A DNA stretch of 32,000 nt from an uncultured bacterium (lineage in GTDB: Bacteria > Babelota > Babeliae > Babelales > Vermiphilaceae), in contig OY970212.1 of assembly GCA_963713925.1 (NCBI GenBank), forward strand, positions 986,437 to 1,018,436, written 5' to 3'. The notes below the pieces were generated by a model, which saw nothing but the letters and a program-made list of their open reading frames with translations, did not search any database and had not been told where the DNA came from. Every line of letters starts with the position of its first letter. Position 1 is the first letter of the stretch. Below, piece by piece: positions 6,761-23,989 of the stretch. The translations under genes were made by a program, and so were the position numbers.

Positions 6761-6775
6761 TTTTTATGCAAAAAA

Positions 6776-6804
6776 AGAGCCTCGAAAAAATCGAGGCTCT
6801 TTTC
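6776..6804. terminator. bidirectional rho-independent terminator
   Basis: 10-bp stem AGAGCCTCGA / TCGAGGCTCT with an AAAAA loop. An A-run precedes it and a T-run follows. It sits between convergent genes ending at 6760 (+) and 6821 (-). Confidence 0.7.
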
Positions 6805-6820: not shown

Positions 6821-7234
6821 TTACCAGTTGCTTCCGCCTGAACGGTTGCCACCGAATCCACCACGGTCGCTGCTGCCACCACGGGATCCACCGAATCCGC
6901 CACGGGATCCAGATCCACCGAATCCGCCACGGTCACCACCGTTGCTGCTACCAAAGCGACGAGGACCAGCTGGACGACGATCGCCACGGTTTTCTTGTGG
7001 ACGAGCTTCGTTAACGGTAATACGGTTTCCGTTTACATCTTTGCCATTCAATTGAGCGATAGCTTCTTGTGCTTGCTCAGCCATAGGCATTTCAACGAAA
7101 CAGAATCCACGGAATTCACCGGTGAATTTATCTTTAATCAATTTGATTGAGTCTACTTGACCGTATTGTTCAAACAATCCACGGACATCATTTTCTGTTG
7201 TGTTAAGACCTAGTCTACCAACGTAAATATTCAT
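6821..7234 (-). CDS. RRM-type RNA-binding protein with a Gly/Arg-rich (RGG) tail
   Basis: RNP-2 NIYVGRL and RNP-1 RGFCFVEM motifs. The ~80 aa RRM is followed by DRGGFGGSGSRGGFGGSRGGSSDRGGFGGNRSGGS. Confidence 0.9.
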   Translation of the reverse strand: MNIYVGRLGLNTTENDVRGLFEQYGQVDSIKLIKDKFTGEFRGFCFVEMPMAEQAQEAIAQLNGKDVNGNRITVNEARPQENRGDRRPAGPRRFGSSNGGDRGGFGGSGSRGGFGGSRGGSSDRGGFGGNRSGGSNW

Positions 7235-7496: not shown

Positions 7497-7693
7497 GCTT
7501 ATGCGAAAATTAAGCTTTCTGAACAAAATATACCGTAATCTCGCTCCACTTCAATTGGGGACCCCGAATTGGGGCCGGTTGTCATGCTGAACTTGTTTCA
7601 GCATCCAGATCTGGGTTAAGTGGATCCTGAAATGAATTCAGGATGACAAAGCAATAAGAAGACTTTCGGTAATTTTTGGATCCCCCTTAACCT
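7497..7693. repeat. MITE-like intergenic repeat, copy A (carries a nested 44-bp insertion)
   Basis: Near-identical to 10020-10153 across GCTTATRCGAAA..TTAAGCTTTCT..GGTTGTCATGCTGAACTTGTTTCAGCATC..GGTTAAGTGGATCCTGAAAT..GACAAAGCAATAA. Internal hairpins are ATGCTGAA/TTCAGCAT (7584-7604) and ATCCTGAA/TTCAGGAT (7624-7644). Confidence 0.7.
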
Positions 7694-10019: not shown

Positions 10020-10153
10020 AGCTTATACGAAACTTAAGCTTTCTAAATAAAAGGTCGGTTGTCATGCTGAACTTGTTTCAGCATCTAGGTTAAGTGGATC
10101 CTGAAATAAATTCTGCCCTGACAAAGCAATAAAGAACTTCTGGAAATTTTCGG
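10020..10153. repeat. MITE-like intergenic repeat, copy B
   Basis: Same element as 7497-7693 without the 44-bp insertion. The ends GCTTATACGAAA and TTTCGGACAAGC form a 10/12 imperfect terminal inverted repeat. Confidence 0.7.
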
Positions 10154-10161
10154 ACAAGCTC

Positions 10162-10803
10162 TTACTCGTTTAATTCATCCATCACCGCATCGAGAGAATC
10201 AACTATCGTAAAATAGTTTCGATGTTTTTTTGCAATATATTCTCGCTGTTCGGCCATTTCAAACCATTCAACAATTGGCGCCCAATAGGCTGTGCCAATG
10301 AGAATGGTTCGGCACCTTTTTTTCATGCCATGCTTGCATCTATTAAGCAGATCAAATAATTCATCCATGGTGCCAATGCCGCCCGGCAAGACTATAAAAG
10401 TTTGTGACAAACTTATAAGCAATTCTTTGCGCACTAAAAAAGTATCAACTTTCATCATGTGCCCATATGGATTATGAAAATGTTCATCAATTCCTTTTAC
10501 CGCTATCCCCAATGATCTATTTTCTTTGCCCAAATGAAGTGCTGCCTCATAAGCGCCTTGATTAACAGCTACCATAAATCCAGGGCCACCGCCCGTAATA
10601 ACGCCATACCCTTTTTGCACCAGCAATCGCCCGAGTGCGTGTGCTTGGCTAATCAAAACATCACTTTCATGCACCAATGAAGATCCAAAGACGGTAACTC
10701 GTTGCACAGGCATTTTTCGAACATACCATTGCACTTTTACTATGCAATAAGCTGAGTATAGGTATCTAAAAAAAGTTGATAGAACTTCACTAAACTTCAT
10801 CAT
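10162..10803 (-). CDS. LOG-family (TIGR00730/COG1611) nucleotide phosphoribohydrolase-like protein, paralogue 2
   Basis: Motifs TGGGPGFM and PGGIGTMDELF (PGGxGTxxE). The ATG at 10803 overlaps the upstream TGA as ATGA. Confidence 0.8.
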   Translation of the reverse strand: MMKFSEVLSTFFRYLYSAYCIVKVQWYVRKMPVQRVTVFGSSLVHESDVLISQAHALGRLLVQKGYGVITGGGPGFMVAVNQGAYEAALHLGKENRSLGIAVKGIDEHFHNPYGHMMKVDTFLVRKELLISLSQTFIVLPGGIGTMDELFDLLNRCKHGMKKRCRTILIGTAYWAPIVEWFEMAEQREYIAKKHRNYFTIVDSLDAVMDELNE

Positions 10804-11480
10804 GCACCTTTCTTCTTGCCCATATGAATTTCGCAAACCCCTAAGACAATACTTTTGACATATTCTAAATCATCGGTAACAGAAAGCATGTCGAGCTGAT
10901 TCTGGGTTATTAAACCTCCGCGTAAGGCATCACTATTAATCCAATCGAAAAAGCCTTTCCAATAGGTAGACCCAAATAAAATAACAGGCATTTGTGGAAT
11001 TTCTTTTGTGTACATCAACGTTAGTACTTCCGTCAATTCATCTAATGTGCCAAATCCACCGGGGAAAACTACAAAAGCCGTTGAATAATGTATGAGCAAC
11101 CATTTACGGGCAAAAAGATAATCGAGCAAAAAATATTGTTTTACACACTTATTTCTTTCTTCTTTGAGAACTTTCACACCGACGCCAATCACAACTGCCT
11201 TTGAATGAGGATTTGGTAAAATACATGTTGCAGCTTCCATAACCCCGGGGCCTCCGCCAGTAAGCACAGAGATATCATGTGCGATAAAATACTGAGACAA
11301 TGCTCTAATATGCTCTGCAAGGTGCATATCTCCCCTTCTCAGATTAGCCCCGCCAAAGATACTGACGATTGGTCTGTTTACTTTATTTAAGTATCGAATA
11401 CCTGAGAGCGTTTGATAAAAAACGTGCATAAATTCATATGCTTGAACAACCAATACTTTCACTCTTTCAAAATAATTCAT
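10800..11480 (-). CDS. LOG-family (TIGR00730/COG1611) nucleotide phosphoribohydrolase-like protein, paralogue 1
   Basis: Motifs TGGGPGVMEAA and PGGFGTLDELTE. Start taken at MNYFERV (11480); the ORF-track start at 11504 is the alternative. Confidence 0.8.
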   Translation of the reverse strand: MNYFERVKVLVVQAYEFMHVFYQTLSGIRYLNKVNRPIVSIFGGANLRRGDMHLAEHIRALSQYFIAHDISVLTGGGPGVMEAATCILPNPHSKAVVIGVGVKVLKEERNKCVKQYFLLDYLFARKWLLIHYSTAFVVFPGGFGTLDELTEVLTLMYTKEIPQMPVILFGSTYWKGFFDWINSDALRGGLITQNQLDMLSVTDDLEYVKSIVLGVCEIHMGKKKGA

Positions 11481-11531
11481 GATGAATCTCCTAATTATAC
11501 CCAATCATCGTTATCACTTGATTGGGACCCG

Positions 11532-14060: not shown

Positions 14061-14090
14061 GACCCTCAAAACATAACAGTTTTGAGGGTC
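14061..14090. repeat. perfect 12-bp stem hairpin between gltX and ftsL
   Basis: GACCCTCAAAAC (14061-14072), ATAACA loop, GTTTTGAGGGTC (14079-14090). Confidence 0.6.
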
Positions 14091-15785: not shown

Positions 15786-16067
15786 ATGAAAAAATGTATC
15801 CGACTCACCTTCGGCGCACACGTGCCTGAAGGTTTCCTCTCAACCGTTATTCTAGCCCAGGCGCGCTCGCATGAACTGGAAGGTAGTGCTCAACACGTGG
15901 TTGCTGAATCAATCATACGCGTCATCGCATGCGGAGACAAAGATAACATAGATGATTTTCTTGATAGCGTCTTGAAAGAGCTCGCAAAAAAGAAAATCGA
16001 TGATTATGAAATTGAGCCTTTTGTAAAAGATAGGGAATACAGGGGAGTTTTTAGGATAATAGAATAG
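15786..16067 (+). CDS. small protein with an acylphosphatase-like secondary-structure pattern (93 aa)
   Basis: Start set at MKKC behind the Shine-Dalgarno sequence and promoter. The beta-alpha-beta-beta-alpha-beta pattern and length resemble the acylphosphatase fold, but the VQGVGFR active-site motif is absent. Confidence 0.4.
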   Translation: MKKCIRLTFGAHVPEGFLSTVILAQARSHELEGSAQHVVAESIIRVIACGDKDNIDDFLDSVLKELAKKKIDDYEIEPFVKDREYRGVFRIIE

Positions 16068-16538
16068 CCCCTTGTGCAGGGGGCGAGCACCAAAAGCTCC
16101 GCTCCCCGCGGTGGGGCAAGAGTAGTTTTGCCACCACTCTTGCATCTCGGGCAATTAAGACCAAGGTCTTAATGATCCCTTCAGCCGCGCCGAGTCGGCC
16201 ATACAAAATTTCTTACGAAATTTCTTCATGGCTTCCGACGTCGCTCATTGGGACTTCTCTTCTTTACCAATGCGACATTATTATCAAGCCCAAACGACGA
16301 TTCAAAGTCAAATTACAGTGCCTTAAAATCCGCTGCGATGAAATAAAGAAGTCCGGTAGTTTCTCGAGACCGAAACAATTTCGCAGAAATTGTGTGTGTC
16401 GAGGTTTGAAACGAAAGACGGATTTTTAAGGCAGAGCCTTAAATGCCTGGATTCCAAAGGAGGTGGCAAGCACCTCCTTGGCGCTGGTCCCCGCGCAGGG
16501 GACAAAAAAACCGCGCTTTCCATTGCGCAATGGACCTA
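16068..16538. ncRNA. candidate structured non-coding RNA(s); family and strand unassigned
   Basis: 471 nt without a credible ORF between convergent gene ends. GC is visibly higher than in the flanks. There are 10 or more consecutive stable hairpins, plus an H-type pseudoknot-like arrangement at about 16109-16144. Confidence 0.4.
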
Positions 16539-17207
16539 TCAAGGGAATTTAACAATTCCCAACCGTCCCCAGTCATCAACAAACTTTTTTATCCCCTGAT
16601 CGGTGAGCTCATGATGCATCGCCTCGGACAATACATCTGCAGACATGGTGGCAACATCTGCTCGAGCAAGAATTGCTTGATTAAAATGCTCAACAGTGCG
16701 AAGCGACGCTGCAAGGACCTGTGTTTTAAATCCATATCGATCGATCATATTTCTAATGACATGCAAAAGCATCGCTCCGTCTCCCTCTTTGCAATATGCA
16801 TCAAGTCTACCGACAAAGGGCGAAATATAATCAACACCCAGCTTACACATAGCAAGCGCTTGAGTGAGCGTAAAAACGAGGGTGATATTAATTGAAACGC
16901 CCTCTTTAACCAAGCGATCAATCACCTCGTAATAATCTTTATAACATGGAATTTTCACGCTGATATTGGGAGCTATTTTGGCGATCTCATGCGCCTGGCG
17001 ATATATATCTTCTGCCTTCGTTTCTGTCACTTCAACGCTCAAGCTCCGGGAACTGCCGAGGATAGAAGCTATCTCCTTTATTATGGCTACCGGATCGCTC
17101 TTTTCTTTACTCAGATTAGTTGGGTTTGTGGTAACTCCATCCAGGATACCTGTTTTAACCCATTCCTTGATGGTAGGAATATGGGATGTATCGAGAAAAA
17201 TTTTCAT
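16539..17207 (-). CDS. tal: transaldolase / fructose-6-phosphate aldolase (short, type 3B)
   Basis: MKIFLDTSHIPTIKEW...GVTTNPT, SVKIP (Schiff-base Lys context), NITLVF and ISPFVGRLD. Start at the ATG at 17207, giving 222 aa. Confidence 0.9.
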   Translation of the reverse strand: MKIFLDTSHIPTIKEWVKTGILDGVTTNPTNLSKEKSDPVAIIKEIASILGSSRSLSVEVTETKAEDIYRQAHEIAKIAPNISVKIPCYKDYYEVIDRLVKEGVSINITLVFTLTQALAMCKLGVDYISPFVGRLDAYCKEGDGAMLLHVIRNMIDRYGFKTQVLAASLRTVEHFNQAILARADVATMSADVLSEAMHHELTDQGIKKFVDDWGRLGIVKFP

Positions 17208-17352
17208 AAAACACCTTATTTTGATTGTCTTGAACCTGCCTTTAACCATAGCAGAAAATTGACTGCAGACAACCTACTTGCCCAGGGAAGGCCTCCTGTA
17301 ATTGAAAATATTTTCAGATATGATATATTGTTAAATATTGCCCAGTTTAAAA

Positions 17353-17400
17353 GGGGCCCCAAATGGACATTAAAACCCCAAAGCCTTGGCATAATTTGGG
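17353..17400. repeat. REP-like palindromic unit (GGGGCCCCAAATG...AATTTGGG)
   Basis: Same core as the units at 22083-22119, 22144-22192 and 25724-25766 (reverse orientation). Confidence 0.6.
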
Positions 17401-17417
17401 CTAAATGGAGGAAAATC

Positions 17418-18290
17418 ATGAAAAAAGTATTCTTAATTGCTTCCAGCTGTATATTGATCTATTGTCTCTATGCAGTAACACCGGAAAGCACAAAAAGTGT
17501 GGCATCTGCCCCCCTTTCAATGAACCAGCAGATAAAGGACACTAAAACGGTCCCTCATATTGCAACGTTCACCTTGAATTGCGATATCGATGTCCAAAAA
17601 ACGATGGACGATCTTTTTACCGCAGCGCATGATGAATCGGTACATGCACTAGCATTGTATATCAATCATCCGGGCGGAGAATGTGGCCCGTATTCTGCGT
17701 TGCATGACCTTATTAAAGCCATACGGAAGAAAAAACCAGTCGTTGCCCTGATCACTGGACACGCATACTCGGCCGGCTACATGATCGCGAGCGCTACTGA
17801 TTATATCATCTGCGCAAGCGGTGCGGGAATCGGCGCGATCGGAACTATTTGGGAAATTCATAAATACAGCGATGCAACTGTCCGCTGCGATGGCCATGAA
17901 GCAACTGATACGGTTGAAGTCTTTATCGCAGGAAAATATAAAGGTGTCGAAAATCCATTAACGGCGCCATTAACCCCCAAAACTCGTAAACATTTACAAG
18001 CAATTGTTGATGAAAATTATCAGTATTTCTTGAAACTCGTGGCTACCAACCGCAATCTTTCTTTGCAAACTTCCGATCAGTGGGCCGATGGAAAAGAATT
18101 CATGGCAGAAAAAGCATTGGCTCTCGGACTTATTGATCAAATTGGAACGCTGTTTGATGTTGAACAGAAAGTGCTTGAAATGGTGCGCGTTGCAAAACCC
18201 GATATCGATTGGGCGCAAAACGTCACATTTGAAAAATATGTAACAAACGATACAGAACAACTATCTAAAAATGAAGGGAAAAATTCATGA
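17418..18290 (+). CDS. signal peptide peptidase SppA-like S49 serine peptidase, paralogue 1
   Basis: GGAGG Shine-Dalgarno sequence and the ATG at 17418. N-terminal TM or signal segment. Motifs INHPGGE, nucleophile context GHAYSAGYMIASA, and general-base context AGKYKG. Confidence 0.8.
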   Translation: MKKVFLIASSCILIYCLYAVTPESTKSVASAPLSMNQQIKDTKTVPHIATFTLNCDIDVQKTMDDLFTAAHDESVHALALYINHPGGECGPYSALHDLIKAIRKKKPVVALITGHAYSAGYMIASATDYIICASGAGIGAIGTIWEIHKYSDATVRCDGHEATDTVEVFIAGKYKGVENPLTAPLTPKTRKHLQAIVDENYQYFLKLVATNRNLSLQTSDQWADGKEFMAEKALALGLIDQIGTLFDVEQKVLEMVRVAKPDIDWAQNVTFEKYVTNDTEQLSKNEGKNS

Positions 18291-19117
18291 AAAAATTATT
18301 TTTTGGCCTTGTGCTCTTTACTTTGATAGGCGCGGCATATATAACAACTGCGGAAAAGAATACTCTTACCATACAACCTAATACGACACAATCTGAACTT
18401 TGCAAACCGGTTTCCGCTCGAATTGCTGTATTCCATATGACTGGCAACATGGATATAAAAACAGCAATGCAAAATTTAACTGTTGCAGCACGAGATGAAT
18501 CAATTCATGGTTTTATACTGGCAATTAATAATTGCGGCGGCGAAGTCGGCCCCTTTTCTGCATTGCATGATCTGATTAAAACAATCGGCACTAAAAAGCC
18601 GATTATTGCATTGATTGTTGGAAATGCAAAATCAGGTGGTTATATGATTGCAAGCGCAGCAGAATATATCATAGCTTCAAGTTGCTCTGAAATCGGTTCG
18701 ATAGGCGTCATGAACGAAACGCATAAGTATAAAAATGTCGTAATCAAAAAAGATATTGAAGCTGAGGATACAGTCACCGTTTTAACTGCCGGAAAATATA
18801 AGGCCATTGGAAATCCGTATCATGACAATCCAGAAGCTCGTGAATTTCTCCAAAAGAATCTCAATACCCTTTATCAAACATTTATCGAAATTGTTAGCAA
18901 AAATCGCTCCATTTCGATAGAAAAACATGAAGAATGGGCCAACGCAAATATATTTATCGGTTCTAAAGCGGTGCAATCAGGATTAGTAGATACAATAGGG
19001 ACTATTTTTGAAGCAGAAGCAAAAATGATCGAACTGTTACGCATACAAAAACCGGATACCATGTGGTCCAACAAAATTGATTTCTTAGCTTTTGAAACCG
19101 AATCGCAAAAGAAGTAA
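18287..19117 (+). CDS. SppA-like S49 serine peptidase, paralogue 2
   Basis: ATGA overlap with paralogue 1. Motifs INNCGGE, GNAKSGGYMIASA and AGKYKA. Confidence 0.8.
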   Translation: MKKLFFGLVLFTLIGAAYITTAEKNTLTIQPNTTQSELCKPVSARIAVFHMTGNMDIKTAMQNLTVAARDESIHGFILAINNCGGEVGPFSALHDLIKTIGTKKPIIALIVGNAKSGGYMIASAAEYIIASSCSEIGSIGVMNETHKYKNVVIKKDIEAEDTVTVLTAGKYKAIGNPYHDNPEAREFLQKNLNTLYQTFIEIVSKNRSISIEKHEEWANANIFIGSKAVQSGLVDTIGTIFEAEAKMIELLRIQKPDTMWSNKIDFLAFETESQKK

Positions 19118-19141
19118 GCAAACACCATTCATATTTTTCCA

Positions 19142-19174
19142 GGGGCTTGTCCGATGACAGGCCCTCTTTTTTTT
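19142..19174 (+). terminator. rho-independent terminator
   Basis: 10-bp stem GGGGCTTGTC / GACAGGCCCT (two G-U pairs) with a CGAT loop, followed by T8. Confidence 0.6.
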
Positions 19175-19218
19175 GATATTTTGAATTATATTATATTACC
19201 AATTAGACTTTTTATAGG

Positions 19219-20043
19219 ATGATTATGAAAAAAATAATATATGTACTGCTTTTAGCGTGCCCATACCTTCAGGTGTTTGCTGATGAACAAAAACCTTCAT
19301 GGAATCTTGAAATTTCTTCCAATAATTCCATAAAACCACGCATCGGTGTTTTTCACATCACTAATGATATGAACCAGTATACAACCCTGAAAAACCTCGT
19401 TCTAGCCTCTAAAGACAATTCGATTCATGGAATTTTACTCTCTGTTAACCATTACGGAGGCGCAGCCTCTATTCTTTCAGCTGTCCGTGATTTGATTAAA
19501 ACTATATCATTGAAAAAGCCTGTCATTGCTCTCGTTATCGGATCTGCTGCCTCCGGAGGTTACTATATGACCTGTGCAGCAAATTATATTGTGGTAACAG
19601 AAATGGCACACATGGGCTCTATTGGTGTTCTTCGTGAAGTTCATAAATATAGTAACGTTAAAATCAACAAAGATATAAAAGCTCACGATAAAATTGAAGT
19701 CTTGCGCGCAGGAAAATATAAAGCTGCCGGGCATCAATATACATCAGAACTCACCGAAGAAGATCGGAAATATATGCAACACGAGATTGATGCGATCTAT
19801 AAAATCTTTCTTGCCAATGTCGCAAATGATAGAAACTTATCATTGGAAAACGAAGATCAATGGGCAAATGCTCGTCTTTTCACCGGAGCGGAAGCTGTTG
19901 AAGTCGGTCTTGCAGATCAAGTGGGCACTTTGTTTGATTTCGAAAAAAAAATGATGGAATATTTACGATCAATAAAACCTGATCTCACTTGGTCGGCCCA
20001 GTTTGATTATGCCGAATACGAAACTGAACTGCCAAAGAAATAA
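19219..20043 (+). CDS. SppA-like S49 serine peptidase, paralogue 3
   Basis: Signal-like N-terminus. Motifs VNHYGGA, GSAASGGYYMTCA and AGKYKA. Collinear with paralogues 1 and 2. Confidence 0.8.
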   Translation: MIMKKIIYVLLLACPYLQVFADEQKPSWNLEISSNNSIKPRIGVFHITNDMNQYTTLKNLVLASKDNSIHGILLSVNHYGGAASILSAVRDLIKTISLKKPVIALVIGSAASGGYYMTCAANYIVVTEMAHMGSIGVLREVHKYSNVKINKDIKAHDKIEVLRAGKYKAAGHQYTSELTEEDRKYMQHEIDAIYKIFLANVANDRNLSLENEDQWANARLFTGAEAVEVGLADQVGTLFDFEKKMMEYLRSIKPDLTWSAQFDYAEYETELPKK

Positions 20044-23790: not shown

Positions 23791-23989
23791 TACGTCAAAT
23801 GAATGACTATTGCCACAAACAAAAGTTCATTCATTTCAACAGCCTCTTAAATGCTTACCTTTTGTCTGAAAAGAGTCTCATATTCAGTATATACAGCGGG
23901 GATATATAATATCCCCGCTTTCAATTTGACGAGTCATTAATCTTGGTGCTATAAGTATAAAAAACCGATTCTTTAAAAAAGGAAACGTA

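What the first reader, a model, noticed from the sequence alone, without database searches (positions are those of the whole stretch)
16068..16538. 471-nt GC-enriched, hairpin-dense non-coding block between convergent genes: candidate unassigned structured RNA
No credible ORF lies between the stop at 16067 (+) and the tal stop at 16539 (-), yet the block is noticeably more GC-rich than its surroundings. It can be read as an almost uninterrupted series of stable helices:
- CCCCT/AGGGG at 16068-16083.
- GGGGCGAGC..GCTCCGCTCCCC at 16081-16108.
- An interleaved GGTGG / GCAAGAGT / CCACC / ACTCTTGC arrangement (H-type pseudoknot geometry) at about 16109-16144.
- TTAAGACC-AA-GGTCTTAA.
- A ~60-nt imperfect hairpin at 16186-16245 capped by AAATTTC-TTAC-GAAATTT.
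- A long-range helix pairing GGGACTTCT..TTTA (16250-16266) with TAAAGAAGTCC (16345-16355).
- CAATTTC-GCA-GAAATTG.
- TTAAGGC-AGA-GCCTTAA.
- CCAAAGGAGGTG-GCAAG-CACCTCCTTGG.
- GTCCCC-GCGCA-GGGGAC.

The 5' GGGGGCGAGC (16079-16088) can also pair with GCTGGTCCCC (16490-16499), which lies directly after a hairpin. That resembles a closing or acceptor-like helix. The plus strand contains CAAACGACGA.. in a short frame (..NDDSKSNYSALKSAA MK stop, about 16290-16346) that recalls tmRNA tag sequences of the ANDENYALAA type. Against tmRNA, I could not find the GGAUUCGAC element, a UUCGA-type T-loop or a terminal ACCA. I also found no RNase P P4/CR-I plus CR-V pair. It could be a divergent tmRNA, another large RNA, or just stacked REP-type repeats.
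Basis: partly seen in the sequence, partly recalled or inferred. Interest (0 to 1): 0.65.

Follow-up and report, generated by a model that had tools for sequence, protein, structure and literature searches.

The report
Head-to-head pair of candidate small RNAs
The hairpin-rich gap between two converging genes of an uncultured Dependentiae bacterium is not a tmRNA or RNase P RNA; it looks like two mirror-image copies of an undescribed, strongly conserved ~170-nt structured small-RNA gene placed back to back, but no transcript has been seen.

Summary
The hairpin density is real. Five of about 28 perfect hairpins with stems of 7 bp or more in the 32-kb window lie in this 471-nt gap, and the folding z-score is about -5. 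No ORF is supported.

ARAGORN and Rfam find no tmRNA, RNase P RNA or other known family.

Exact 31-mers of the block occur in 19 sequencing runs from 13 studies, whereas the flanking genes were only glimpsed there, at 88-89% identity. The conserved core has sharp limits, 16099-16506.

The core is an inverted duplication. The left half read on the minus strand is homologous to the right half read on the plus strand (about 66% identity). The two halves share helices P1, P2, h4, h3, h2 and h1, and 14 of 33 consensus pairs show compensatory changes.

Four observations favour two RNAs transcribed outward from the AT-rich centre. They are the G·U pairs, the wobble substitutions, the U-rich outer flanks and the back-to-back promoter-like boxes.

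In one relative, halves have been exchanged by inversion, as expected for inverted paralogues.

The window holds no third copy, and the block matches no plasmid or phage record.

Verdict: a probable new small-RNA family present as a divergent pair (about 0.5). A DNA-level palindromic or mobile element is the main rival (about 0.2). No RNA data exist and the function is unknown.

The parts
16099..16270 (-). Left unit (L): candidate sRNA read on the minus strand, from about 16270 down to 16099. Helices are P1, P2, h4, h3, h2 and h1.
   Evidence: The conserved left limit is at 16098/16099, with different flanks in the X4, X8, X10, X12, X13 and X14 contigs. MFE is -65.5 on the minus strand against -56.5 on the plus strand. 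The covariance model scores 148.5 bits, by construction.
16337..16506 (+). Right unit (R): paralogous candidate sRNA read on the plus strand.
   Evidence: The conserved right limit is at 16506/16507, with two different flanks in X10. MFE is -62.7 on the plus strand against -52.2 on the minus strand. It aligns with rc(L) at about 66% identity. The covariance model scores 145.9 bits.
16277..16305 (-). Promoter-like site for L: TTGAAT, 17-nt spacer, AATAAT.
   Evidence: Consensus scan. The -10 region lies in the part conserved in X2, X6 and X19. TTGCAT stands at the -35 position in X2 and X19. This is inference only.
16301..16329 (+). Promoter-like site for R: TTCAAA, 17-nt spacer, TAAAAT. It sits back to back with the L site and the two -35 boxes overlap.
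   Evidence: Consensus scan. In X6 the stretch before the R unit (GTTATGATGTCACATTCATAAAGA) is homologous to the L promoter/leader (ATAATAATGTCGCATTGGTAAAGA). This is inference only.
16116..16143 (-). L h2: 11-bp stem GCAAGAGUGGU/ACUACUCUUGC (one internal G·U) with loop GGCAAA.
   Evidence: The bases 16113-16161 are nearly invariant in variants from about ten runs. X10/X12 carry a 52-nt insertion in this loop.
16454..16481 (+). R h2: CC-AAAGGAGGUG / GCAAG / CACCUCCUU-GG.
   Evidence: Relatives carry CAAGAAGGGUU-GGCGAG-AACCCUUCUUG and GCAAAAGGGUU-GGCGAG-AACCCUUUUGC, both perfect 11-bp stems. These involve several both-sided changes and compensated indels.
16154..16173 (-). L h3: UUAAGAC stem with a variable loop (CUUG, or GUA in relatives).
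16425..16443 (+). R h3: UUUAAGGC-AGA-GCCUUAAA.
   Evidence: The pair G16431-C16437 is A-U in L and in an X10/X12 variant.
16205..16224 (-). L h4: AAAUUUC-GUAA-GAAAUUU, the tip of the long P2 hairpin (16194-16239).
16375..16393 (+). R h4: ACAAUUUC-GCA-GAAAUUGU, the tip of P2 (lower stem 16363-16367 / 16399-16403).
   Evidence: The pair C16382-G16386 becomes U-A in X2 and X12. A16375>G and C16376>U give G·U on the plus strand.
16351..16423 (+). R P1: GUCCG (16351-16355) pairs with CGGAU (16419-16423). The homologue in L is GUCCC (16254-16250) with GGGAU (16179-16175).
   Evidence: The fifth pair is G-C in R and C-G in L. C16419>U (X19) and T16176>C (X9) give wobble pairs in the outward sense.
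16487..16503 (+). R h1: GUCCCC-GCGCA-GGGGAC, the 3'-terminal hairpin.
   Evidence: Sequence. In X10 variants it is followed, after AA, by CAUUUUUUGC or UGUUAUUUAUU. In the window it is followed by A7, which is the U-tract of the tal terminator on the other strand.
16099..16116 (-). L h1: CCCC-ACCGC-GGGG (alternative pairing CCGC-GGGGA-GCGG), the 3' end of the conserved L core.
   Evidence: The minus-strand flank beyond 16099 is U-rich in most variants: GCUUUUGG, UUUCUUAAACG, UUUGUUUAAAC, GCUUUUUAAUG, GUUCUUUGUGUG, UAUUCUUUAAAUG.
16067..16084 (-). Hairpin GCCCC-CUGCACAA-GGGGC followed by UAUUCUAUUA on the minus strand. It is a possible terminator of L and lies outside the conserved core.
   Evidence: Terminator scan. 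Related hairpins sit in the X9 and X10/X12 flanks.
16503..16531 (-). Terminator-like site of tal (stem plus U7). It is not part of the block.

Best explanation
The block holds two paralogous genes for a structured small RNA of about 170 nt, arranged head to head. Each is read outward from its own sigma-70-like promoter in the AT-rich centre. The left copy is on the minus strand (about 16270 down to 16099, perhaps on to the hairpin at 16084-16067). The right copy is on the plus strand (about 16337 to 16506).

Each RNA has the following layout:
- a purine-rich 5' leader (..AAAGAAG..);
- a long-range helix P1 (GUCCS/SGGAU) that encloses a long hairpin P2 tipped by h4;
- hairpin h3 (UUAAGRC stem);
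- a conserved single-stranded linker (YGCCYG..);
- an 11-bp hairpin h2 with a conserved GGCRAR loop;
- a GC-rich 3' hairpin h1.

Because the two copies are inverted, the DNA reads as one large nested palindrome.

Shown here: the inverted duplication, the sharp conserved limits, conservation above the flanking genes, and shared helices with compensatory changes.

Inferred: that the units are transcribed, the outward direction, and the promoters and terminators.

Most likely mode of action (a guess): a trans-acting RNA that is recognised by a protein or another RNA through the invariant h2 loop and linker. The sequence there is frozen while the stems covary.
For: **Inverted duplication**
- The left arm aligned against rc(right arm) scores 68, against 27 +/- 5.6 for shuffles (maximum 49).
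- 104 of 157 aligned positions are complementary.
- MAFFT aligns rc(L) with R end to end.

**Conservation**
- The block alone shares 31-mers with 19 runs from 13 studies. The 1.5-kb stretch that includes the flanking genes found only 3 runs.
- Pieces of the block are mostly 94-100% identical. The only flank pieces seen are 88-89% identical: tal in X19 and the upstream gene in X13.
- The limits at 16098/9 and 16506/7 are sharp, with different flanks.

**Structure**
- RNAalifold on 7 sequences (two paralogues plus 5 reconstructed variants) gives h4, h3 and h2. 14 of 33 pairs have both sides changed with the pair kept.
- The P1 fifth pair is C-G in L and G-C in R. The P2 lower stems also differ by both-sided changes.
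- Most variation and a 52-nt insertion fall in loops.

**Direction**
- The 13 window helices hold 4 G·U and no A·C in the outward sense, after correcting the h1 register.
- The single-sided stem substitutions 16375 A>G, 16376 C>T, 16419 C>T and 16176 T>C all give wobble pairs in the outward sense. So does 16192 G>A in the MFE register, though that base is unpaired in an alternative register.
- The alifold energy is -23.4 (33 pairs) outward and -16.9 (22 pairs) inward.
- Each half folds about 10 kcal/mol better on its outward strand.
- The outer flanks are U-rich in the outward sense.
- Back-to-back promoter-like boxes sit in the centre.

**Copy number**
- No other copy is found in the window by blastn or by covariance model.
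- The run holding this strain shows no variant copies.
- In X10 the variants have different depths (21/11/6/4.6), which suggests different genomes rather than many copies in one genome.

**Exchange of halves**
- An X19 contig has the window's L-type outer part followed by an R-type inner part. This is the product expected from recombination between inverted paralogues, and it leaves both genes intact.
Against: - No transcript evidence exists. No RNA run holds the block.
- Most of the about 10 kcal/mol strand difference is compositional. The z-scores differ by only 0.5-0.7.
- The wobble counts are small and several involve terminal pairs. The helices were chosen by folding the outward strands.
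- Promoter-like hits are common in this AT-rich DNA: 10 found in 1.9 kb against 3.3 expected.
- The U-runs lie 3-8 nt after h1 rather than directly after it. The window's R unit has no U-run at all.
- The variants were reconstructed from difference tables of short, low-depth contigs. X6 and X9 lack one or two unlisted differences.
- Palindromic DNA can keep its symmetry through template-switch mutation without any RNA-level selection.
- X19 carries at least two versions at similar depth, so some genomes may hold more than one locus.
- One substitution (16364 T>A), reported but not, would break a P2 pair.
Confidence: 0.5

Rival explanations
1. DNA-level element. The block is a nested palindrome that works or spreads as DNA. 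It could be a MITE/BIME-like mobile or mosaic repeat whose hairpins are recognised on single-stranded DNA. It could instead be a symmetric protein-binding or recombination site. It is not an RNA gene.
For: - The whole-block symmetry shows no strand bias: arm-to-arm mismatches are G·T 13 against A·C 10, and z is -5.0 against -5.1 on the two strands.
- There are nested inversions between relatives.
- The limits are sharp and the flanks differ between genomes.
- The ends look like inverted and direct repeats (D1 and D4).
- The block lies between convergent genes, as BIMEs do.
- The genome does carry a short repeated palindromic family elsewhere (7577-7660 and 10057-10137).
- An X19 contig shows the h3 module next to other sequence.
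Against: - There is a single locus in the window and in the run of this strain.
- It sits at the same locus in at least three relatives, next to the same upstream gene or next to tal, yet it is more conserved than those genes. That points to purifying selection in place rather than recent spread.
- No clear target-site duplication is seen.
- No transposase or recombinase lies within 32 kb.
- It has no match in plasmids or phages.
- Per-half G·U and wobble asymmetry is not expected for a DNA-level palindrome.
- The hexaloop is conserved on a covarying stem.
Confidence: 0.22
2. It is RNA, but read differently. Either the halves are the structured 3' UTRs of the two convergent genes (read inward, ending in the centre), or one long transcript of about 410 nt folds into a giant branched hairpin.
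For: - Both flanking genes point into the block, and the upstream gene's hairpin lacks a U-tract on its own strand.
- Hairpins followed by A/U-rich runs exist at the inner ends (16240-16276, then AUUAUUAU).
- The full-length MFE closes the two ends on each other with z about -5.
- In X19 tal is again followed by an outer end of the block.
Against: - Wobble pairs and substitutions fit the outward sense and would be A·C mismatches if read inward.
- The alifold energy is poorer inward.
- tal has its own terminator-like site before the block.
- The arms are only about 66% complementary to each other, while each arm's local hairpins are nearly perfect.
- Inversion of the inner part would reverse-complement 250 nt of a single long RNA.
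Confidence: 0.15
3. It is a divergent tmRNA (one-piece or permuted), an RNase P RNA, or another known large RNA.
For: - The size of about 410 nt fits.
- The plus-strand frame reads ..NDDSKSNYSALKSAAMK*.
- An AAGUCCGG 8-mer at 16349-16356 is, from my memory of the E. coli M1 RNA and not checked here, the same as in RNase P CR-I.
- The window contains no ssrA or rnpB.
Against: - ARAGORN finds nothing.
- Rfam finds nothing at the gathering threshold or at E<=10, including on slices of about 190 nt.
- No T-arm or acceptor stem is present.
- The tag frame is broken or changed in relatives.
- The sequence is an inverted duplication, which neither RNA is.
- A Dependentiae genome paper lists ssrA and rnpB among its annotated ncRNAs.
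Confidence: 0.02

Closest known systems
Duplicated bacterial sRNA genes (for example tandem PrrF1/PrrF2 or OmrA/OmrB, 6S-1/6S-2, the LhrC copies); recalled from general knowledge and not tested here
   Same: These are paralogous, independently transcribed, structured small RNAs of 100-200 nt. They have their own promoter and a 3' hairpin, lie in intergenic DNA, and are more conserved than neutral spacer.
   Different: - No sequence or covariance-model relation to any Rfam family was found.
- The two copies here are head to head with overlapping -35 boxes, not in tandem.
- Transcription is not shown.
- No target or partner is known.
REP/BIME clusters and MITEs (for example E. coli BIMEs, Neisseria Correia elements, Rickettsia palindromic elements)
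   Same: Both are hairpin-dense, GC-enriched imperfect palindromes that lie between convergent genes. Both have modules in alternating orientation and sharp limits, and their arrangement varies between relatives.
   Different: - Those families are multicopy within a genome. This block has no other copy in the window or in the strain's run.
- It stays at one locus in several relatives and is more conserved than the neighbouring genes.
- No transposase of RAYT or IS200 type is nearby.
tmRNA (ssrA), including two-piece permuted forms
   Same: The length is similar, there are many helices, and a short frame begins ..NDD.
   Different: - It has no tRNA-like domain.
- It gives no ARAGORN or Rfam hit.
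- The frame is not conserved.
- The sequence is a two-fold inverted repeat.
Invertible DNA switches (invertons such as fimS or hin)
   Same: Inverted repeats (the h3 regions, about 29 bp and 20/29 identical) flank a segment of about 250 bp that holds promoter-like boxes. That segment is found in the opposite orientation in a relative.
   Different: - No invertase gene lies within 32 kb.
- Flipping exchanges two homologous halves, so it would not switch anything on or off.
- Both orientations were not seen within one population.

Membership tests
tmRNA | tRNA-like domain (acceptor stem with G·U, T-arm, 3' CCA context) | tested here: not met
   ARAGORN finds 0 genes in the window. No tmRNA, alpha, beta or cyano tmRNA hit appears at the gathering threshold or at E<=10.
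tmRNA | Conserved tag reading frame with a resume codon and a hydrophobic C-terminus before the stop | tested here: not met
   The window frame ends ..SAAMK*. The 30-nt stretches seen in relatives read differently, and X19 has an in-frame TAA.
Bacterial RNase P RNA | CR-I and CR-V forming P4, within the type A or type B core | tested here: not met
   No RNaseP_bact_a/b hit appears at E<=10. The only CR-I-like 8-mer pairs with a segment 60 nt away, not about 280 nt away.
REP/BIME or MITE repeat family | Many dispersed copies in the same genome | tested here: not met
   blastn (word size 7) and covariance model R1 find no further copy in the other 31.5 kb. Run X1, which holds 71% of the block's sampled 31-mers, shows only exact pieces. 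The whole 1.32-Mb genome could not be scanned.
REP/BIME or MITE repeat family | Terminal inverted repeats with a target-site duplication, or an empty site in relatives | tested here: inconclusive
   The ends are similar hairpins (D1). The flanks CAAAAGCTCCGC and CAAAAAAACCGC resemble each other, but part of the left one lies inside the conserved core. No empty site was seen.
Independently transcribed bacterial sRNA gene | Conserved secondary structure supported by covariation | tested here: met
   14 of 33 consensus pairs have both-sided changes that keep the pair. The sample is small (7 sequences, 5 of them reconstructed) and the statistics are informal.
Independently transcribed bacterial sRNA gene | Own promoter and intrinsic terminator | tested here: inconclusive
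   Consensus -35/-10 matches lie back to back in the centre. 3' hairpins with U-rich flanks are seen in most variants, but the spacing is atypical and the window's R unit has none.
Independently transcribed bacterial sRNA gene | A discrete transcript | not testable with these tools
   No RNA run holds the block.
Inverton (site-specific invertible switch) | Inverted repeats flanking a segment found in both orientations, with a cognate invertase | tested here: not met
   The opposite orientation is seen only between genomes. No recombinase domain occurs in the 30 large ORFs of the window that were scanned.

The most novel reading that the evidence does not exclude
The block is an undescribed family of structured small RNAs specific to a clade of Dependentiae, which are obligate intracellular parasites of protists. 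The family is kept as a head-to-head gene pair that exchanges halves by flip-flop recombination. Its h2 hairpin region and linker are held nearly invariant (94-100% identical) in pieces from about ten runs, while the neighbouring genes were seen at only 88-89% identity. That would make it a housekeeping-grade RNA with an unknown partner.
Probability: 0.45. Interest if true: 0.6.

Novelty: new member of a known kind. Interest (0 to 1): 0.5.

Why it matters
Dependentiae are a widespread, almost uncultured phylum with reduced genomes. Apart from the rRNAs, tRNAs, ffs, rnpB and ssrA listed for one genome, my two literature searches found no RNA described for them.

A non-coding locus that is more conserved than its protein-coding neighbours, in samples from soil, leaf litter, freshwater, wetland and sediment, is a good candidate for a lineage-specific functional RNA. 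It would also be a new Rfam family.

The case carries a practical warning. Two inverted paralogous RNA genes look like one giant hairpin RNA or a stack of REP elements when a single sequence is read by eye. Apparent long-range helices can simply be homology between inverted copies.

Tried and rejected
**Negative searches on the block**
- ARAGORN and Rfam at the gathering threshold over the whole window gave nothing.
- Rfam at E<=10 on 801-nt, 186-nt and 196-nt slices gave only noise hits (mir-9229, lactis-plasmid, snoRNAs).
- blastn of the block against the rest of the window and against loci L001-L017 gave only chance matches.
- blastn 'distant' against plasmids and phages gave nothing.
- A six-frame concatenated translation against 5.8 billion proteins, meant to catch spurious ORFs called on relatives, gave nothing.
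- No RNA run was found.

**Searches for relatives**
- A genome-contig scan with tal found only relatives at 38-58% amino-acid identity, without synteny.
- A tal homologue search found nothing closer than 61%.
- tal neighbourhoods in three further contigs have no room for the block and give no covariance-model hit.
- Exact 24-mer searches in metagenome contigs and viral contigs gave 0 hits.
- An 18-mer search in metagenome contigs gave 11 chance hits.

**Readings considered and dropped**
- H-type pseudoknot: sterically implausible, and a plain hairpin on the other strand.
- RNase P P4, from the AAGUCCGG 8-mer.
- 6S-like, SRP-like and CsrB-like RNAs: the architecture does not fit and GGA motifs are not in loops.
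- oriC or parS: no DnaA or ParB boxes noticed by eye, and the block is GC-enriched.
- Small protein: the 11-codon MSDVGSHEEIS frame in L is absent from R.
- The Shine-Dalgarno / anti-Shine-Dalgarno look of the window's R h2 (AAGGAGGUG / CACCUCCUU): not conserved in relatives.
Full report
**Setting**

The window (41.4% GC) carries ordinary bacterial genes: gpsA, uppS, ftsI/ftsL, gltX, tal, three SppA-type peptidases and several permeases. The closest tal proteins in public data are only 55-61% identical. Those that carry a name are called Candidatus Dependentiae or Babeliales. The window's own contig is 1.32 Mb.

The finding is the 471-nt gap between a 124-aa acylphosphatase-like ORF (ends 16067, +) and tal (ends 16539, -).

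Yes, for the raw facts.
- All listed hairpins are present.
- Five of about 28 distinct perfect hairpins (stem of 7 bp or more) of the whole window lie in this gap.
- The MFE z-scores are -5.7 and -3.5 on the two strands.
- The mechanical ORFs have no Pfam hit. A six-frame translation finds nothing in 5.8 billion proteins, not even a gene call from the window's own genome.
- The GC excess is modest.

**Known RNAs**

ARAGORN finds no tRNA or tmRNA. Rfam finds nothing at the gathering threshold in the whole window. At E<=10 on slices of 801, 186 and 196 nt it finds only noise. A paper on the Dependentiae isolate Chromulinavorax reports ffs, rnpB and ssrA among that genome's annotated ncRNAs (PMC6561590). 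So a tmRNA or RNase P RNA in this phylum is not generally beyond annotation.

**Conservation**

A 31-mer search with the gap plus flanking genes found three soil runs. The gap alone found 19 runs from 13 studies, covering soil, leaf litter, freshwater, wetland, sediment and one organism-labelled run.

Laying those contigs on the window gave three results.
- Coverage is confined to 16098/16099-16506/16507.
- Beyond these limits the contigs continue with unrelated or much more diverged sequence. More than six different left flanks and two right flanks were seen.
- Pieces of the block are mostly 94-100% identical, and 16113-16161 is almost invariant.

The only flank pieces seen are 88-89% identical. 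They are a tal fragment in X19 and the 3' end of the upstream gene in X13. X6, X9 and one X10/X12 variant keep a recognisable version of the upstream gene's post-stop hairpin. The locus is therefore inherited in place in several relatives and is more conserved than its neighbours.

In X10 the variants have different depths (about 21, 11, 6 and 4.6). This points to several genomes rather than many copies in one. The run that holds the window's own strain shows exact pieces only.

**Anatomy**

The block is an inverted duplication. The left arm aligns with the reverse complement of the right arm at score 68, against 27 +/- 5.6 for shuffles. 104 of 157 aligned positions are complementary.

Taking the left half on the minus strand (L) and the right half on the plus strand (R), the two align end to end and share the same helices:
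- P1: GUCCC/GGGAU in L and GUCCG/CGGAU in R;
- a long hairpin P2 tipped by h4;
- h3, with a UUAAGRC stem;
- an 11-bp h2;
- a GC-rich terminal h1.

The 'long-range helix' flanking the centre is the pair of homologous 5' parts. The 'pseudoknot' is h2 of L seen from the wrong strand, where its internal G·U becomes an A·C mismatch.

**Covariation**

I reconstructed five variant sequences from the difference tables. For three of them the listed differences equal the reported count. X6 and X9 lack one or two unlisted differences.

RNAalifold on the seven sequences predicts h4, h3 and h2. 14 of 33 pairs have at least one sequence with both sides changed and the pair kept.

The clearest case is h2 of R:
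- window: AAGGAGGUG-GCAAG-CACCUCCUU;
- variant VA (reconstructed from X10/X12): CAAGAAGGGUU-GGCGAG-AACCCUUCUUG;
- variant VE (reconstructed from X2): GCAAAAGGGUU-GGCGAG-AACCCUUUUGC.

All have perfect or near-perfect stems with a GGCRAR loop, and L has GGCAAA.

Other examples:
- h4 pair C16382-G16386 becomes U-A;
- h3 pair G16431-C16437 is A-U in L and in one variant;
- the P1 fifth pair is C-G in L and G-C in R;
- the P2 lower stems differ at two pairs by both-sided changes.

Loop sequences and a 52-nt insertion in the h2 loop account for much of the remaining variation.

**Which strand?**

Over the whole block there is no asymmetry: G·T 13 against A·C 10, and z -5.0 against -5.1. That is expected if the halves are read from opposite strands. 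Taken per half, five lines of evidence point outward.
- Each outward strand folds about 10 kcal/mol better, though z differs by only 0.5-0.7.
- The consensus folding gives -23.4 (33 pairs) outward and -16.9 (22 pairs) inward.
- The 13 helices of the window hold 4 G·U and no A·C in the outward sense. One of the G·U pairs is internal, in L h2 (after correcting my off-by-one in h1).
- The single-sided stem substitutions 16375 A>G, 16376 C>T, 16419 C>T and 16176 T>C all give wobble pairs in the outward sense and would be A·C if read inward. 16192 G>A does too in the MFE register, though that base is unpaired in an alternative register.
- The flank beyond the L end is U-rich on the minus strand in most variants. 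The flank beyond the R end is U-rich on the plus strand in two X10 variants. In the window, the tal terminator's U-tract occupies that place on the other strand.

The consensus scan had already listed two promoter-like sites back to back in the AT-rich centre. They are TTGAAT-17-AATAAT on the minus strand (16305..16277) and TTCAAA-17-TAAAAT on the plus strand (16301..16329). In X6 the stretch before the R unit is homologous to the L promoter/leader.

These lines agree, but each is weak on its own.

**Inversions**

In X19 one contig joins a tal fragment to the L-type outer end (16105-16137). Another contig runs from the L-type outer part (16125-16161, 100% identical) through h3 into the reverse complement of the window's R inner part (16398-16292). 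Relative to the window, outer and inner parts have been exchanged between the two units.

For two inverted paralogous genes this is the expected outcome of recombination at a homologous site, and it leaves two intact, chimeric genes. For a single long RNA it would reverse-complement about 250 nt. No recombinase lies in the window.

**Copy number and mobility**

- blastn and covariance model R1, built from the alignment, find only the two units in the window.
- Model R1 finds nothing credible in 20 other loci.
- The block has no match in plasmids or phages.
- Exact-pattern scans of JGI metagenome contigs and viral contigs found no relative.
- The window does contain a genuine short repeated palindromic element, at 7577-7660 and 10057-10137. 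This shows what a repeat family looks like in this genome.

**Conclusion**

The best-supported reading (about 0.5) is a head-to-head pair of paralogous genes for an undescribed structured sRNA of about 170 nt. It is conserved in a clade of Dependentiae and its function is unknown. The frozen h2 loop and linker on covarying stems suggest recognition by a protein or RNA partner.

The main rival (about 0.2) is a DNA-level nested palindrome, either mobile or protein-binding. A differently read RNA (inward 3' UTRs or one long RNA) gets about 0.15. tmRNA or RNase P is effectively excluded.

Everything about transcription is inference, because no RNA data were available.

Noticed in passing
window 7577-7660 and 10057-10137: An intergenic element of about 85 nt with inverted ends (GGTTGTCATGCTGAA ... 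TTCAGGATGACAAAGCAATAA) occurs twice. The copies are about 90% identical with a 6-nt indel. It contains the perfect hairpins ATGCTGAA-CTTGT-TTCAGCAT and ATCCTGAA-ATGAA-TTCAGGAT. It looks like a small MITE/REP-type family of this genome and is unrelated to the finding.
   Followed up: partly
window 17400-20043: Three consecutive Peptidase_S49 (SppA-like) genes lie on the plus strand. The first ORF, as listed (16989-18290), overlaps tal by 260 nt, so its real start is probably further downstream.
   Followed up: no
window 10162-11504: Two adjacent paralogous LOG / 'possible lysine decarboxylase' (SLOG) genes lie on the minus strand.
   Followed up: no
window 6821-7234: A 137-aa protein carries a clear RRM_1 RNA-recognition motif (E 3e-21). 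It could be an RNA-binding partner for small RNAs in this organism.
   Followed up: no
window 16457-16479: In the window's R unit, the h2 stem is a perfect Shine-Dalgarno consensus (AAGGAGGUG) paired with an anti-Shine-Dalgarno-like CACCUCCUU. Relatives have different stem sequences, so this is probably coincidence.
   Followed up: yes
window 16248-16214 (minus strand): An 11-codon frame (MSDVGSHEEIS) lies in the L unit, preceded by a purine-rich stretch (AGAAGAGAAG). There is no counterpart in the R unit.
   Followed up: partly
window 16131/16132 (variant in runs X10 and X12): One relative carries a 52-nt insertion exactly in the loop of L h2. Its letters are not shown by the tool.
   Followed up: no
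window 6773-6803, 14061-14090, 23895-23919: Strong perfect intergenic hairpins (11-13 bp) lie at gene ends. They are likely terminators.
   Followed up: no
window 16539-17249: The tal ORF as listed is 236 aa, but the protein on record is 222 aa, so translation probably starts at the second Met (MKIFLD...).
   Followed up: partly
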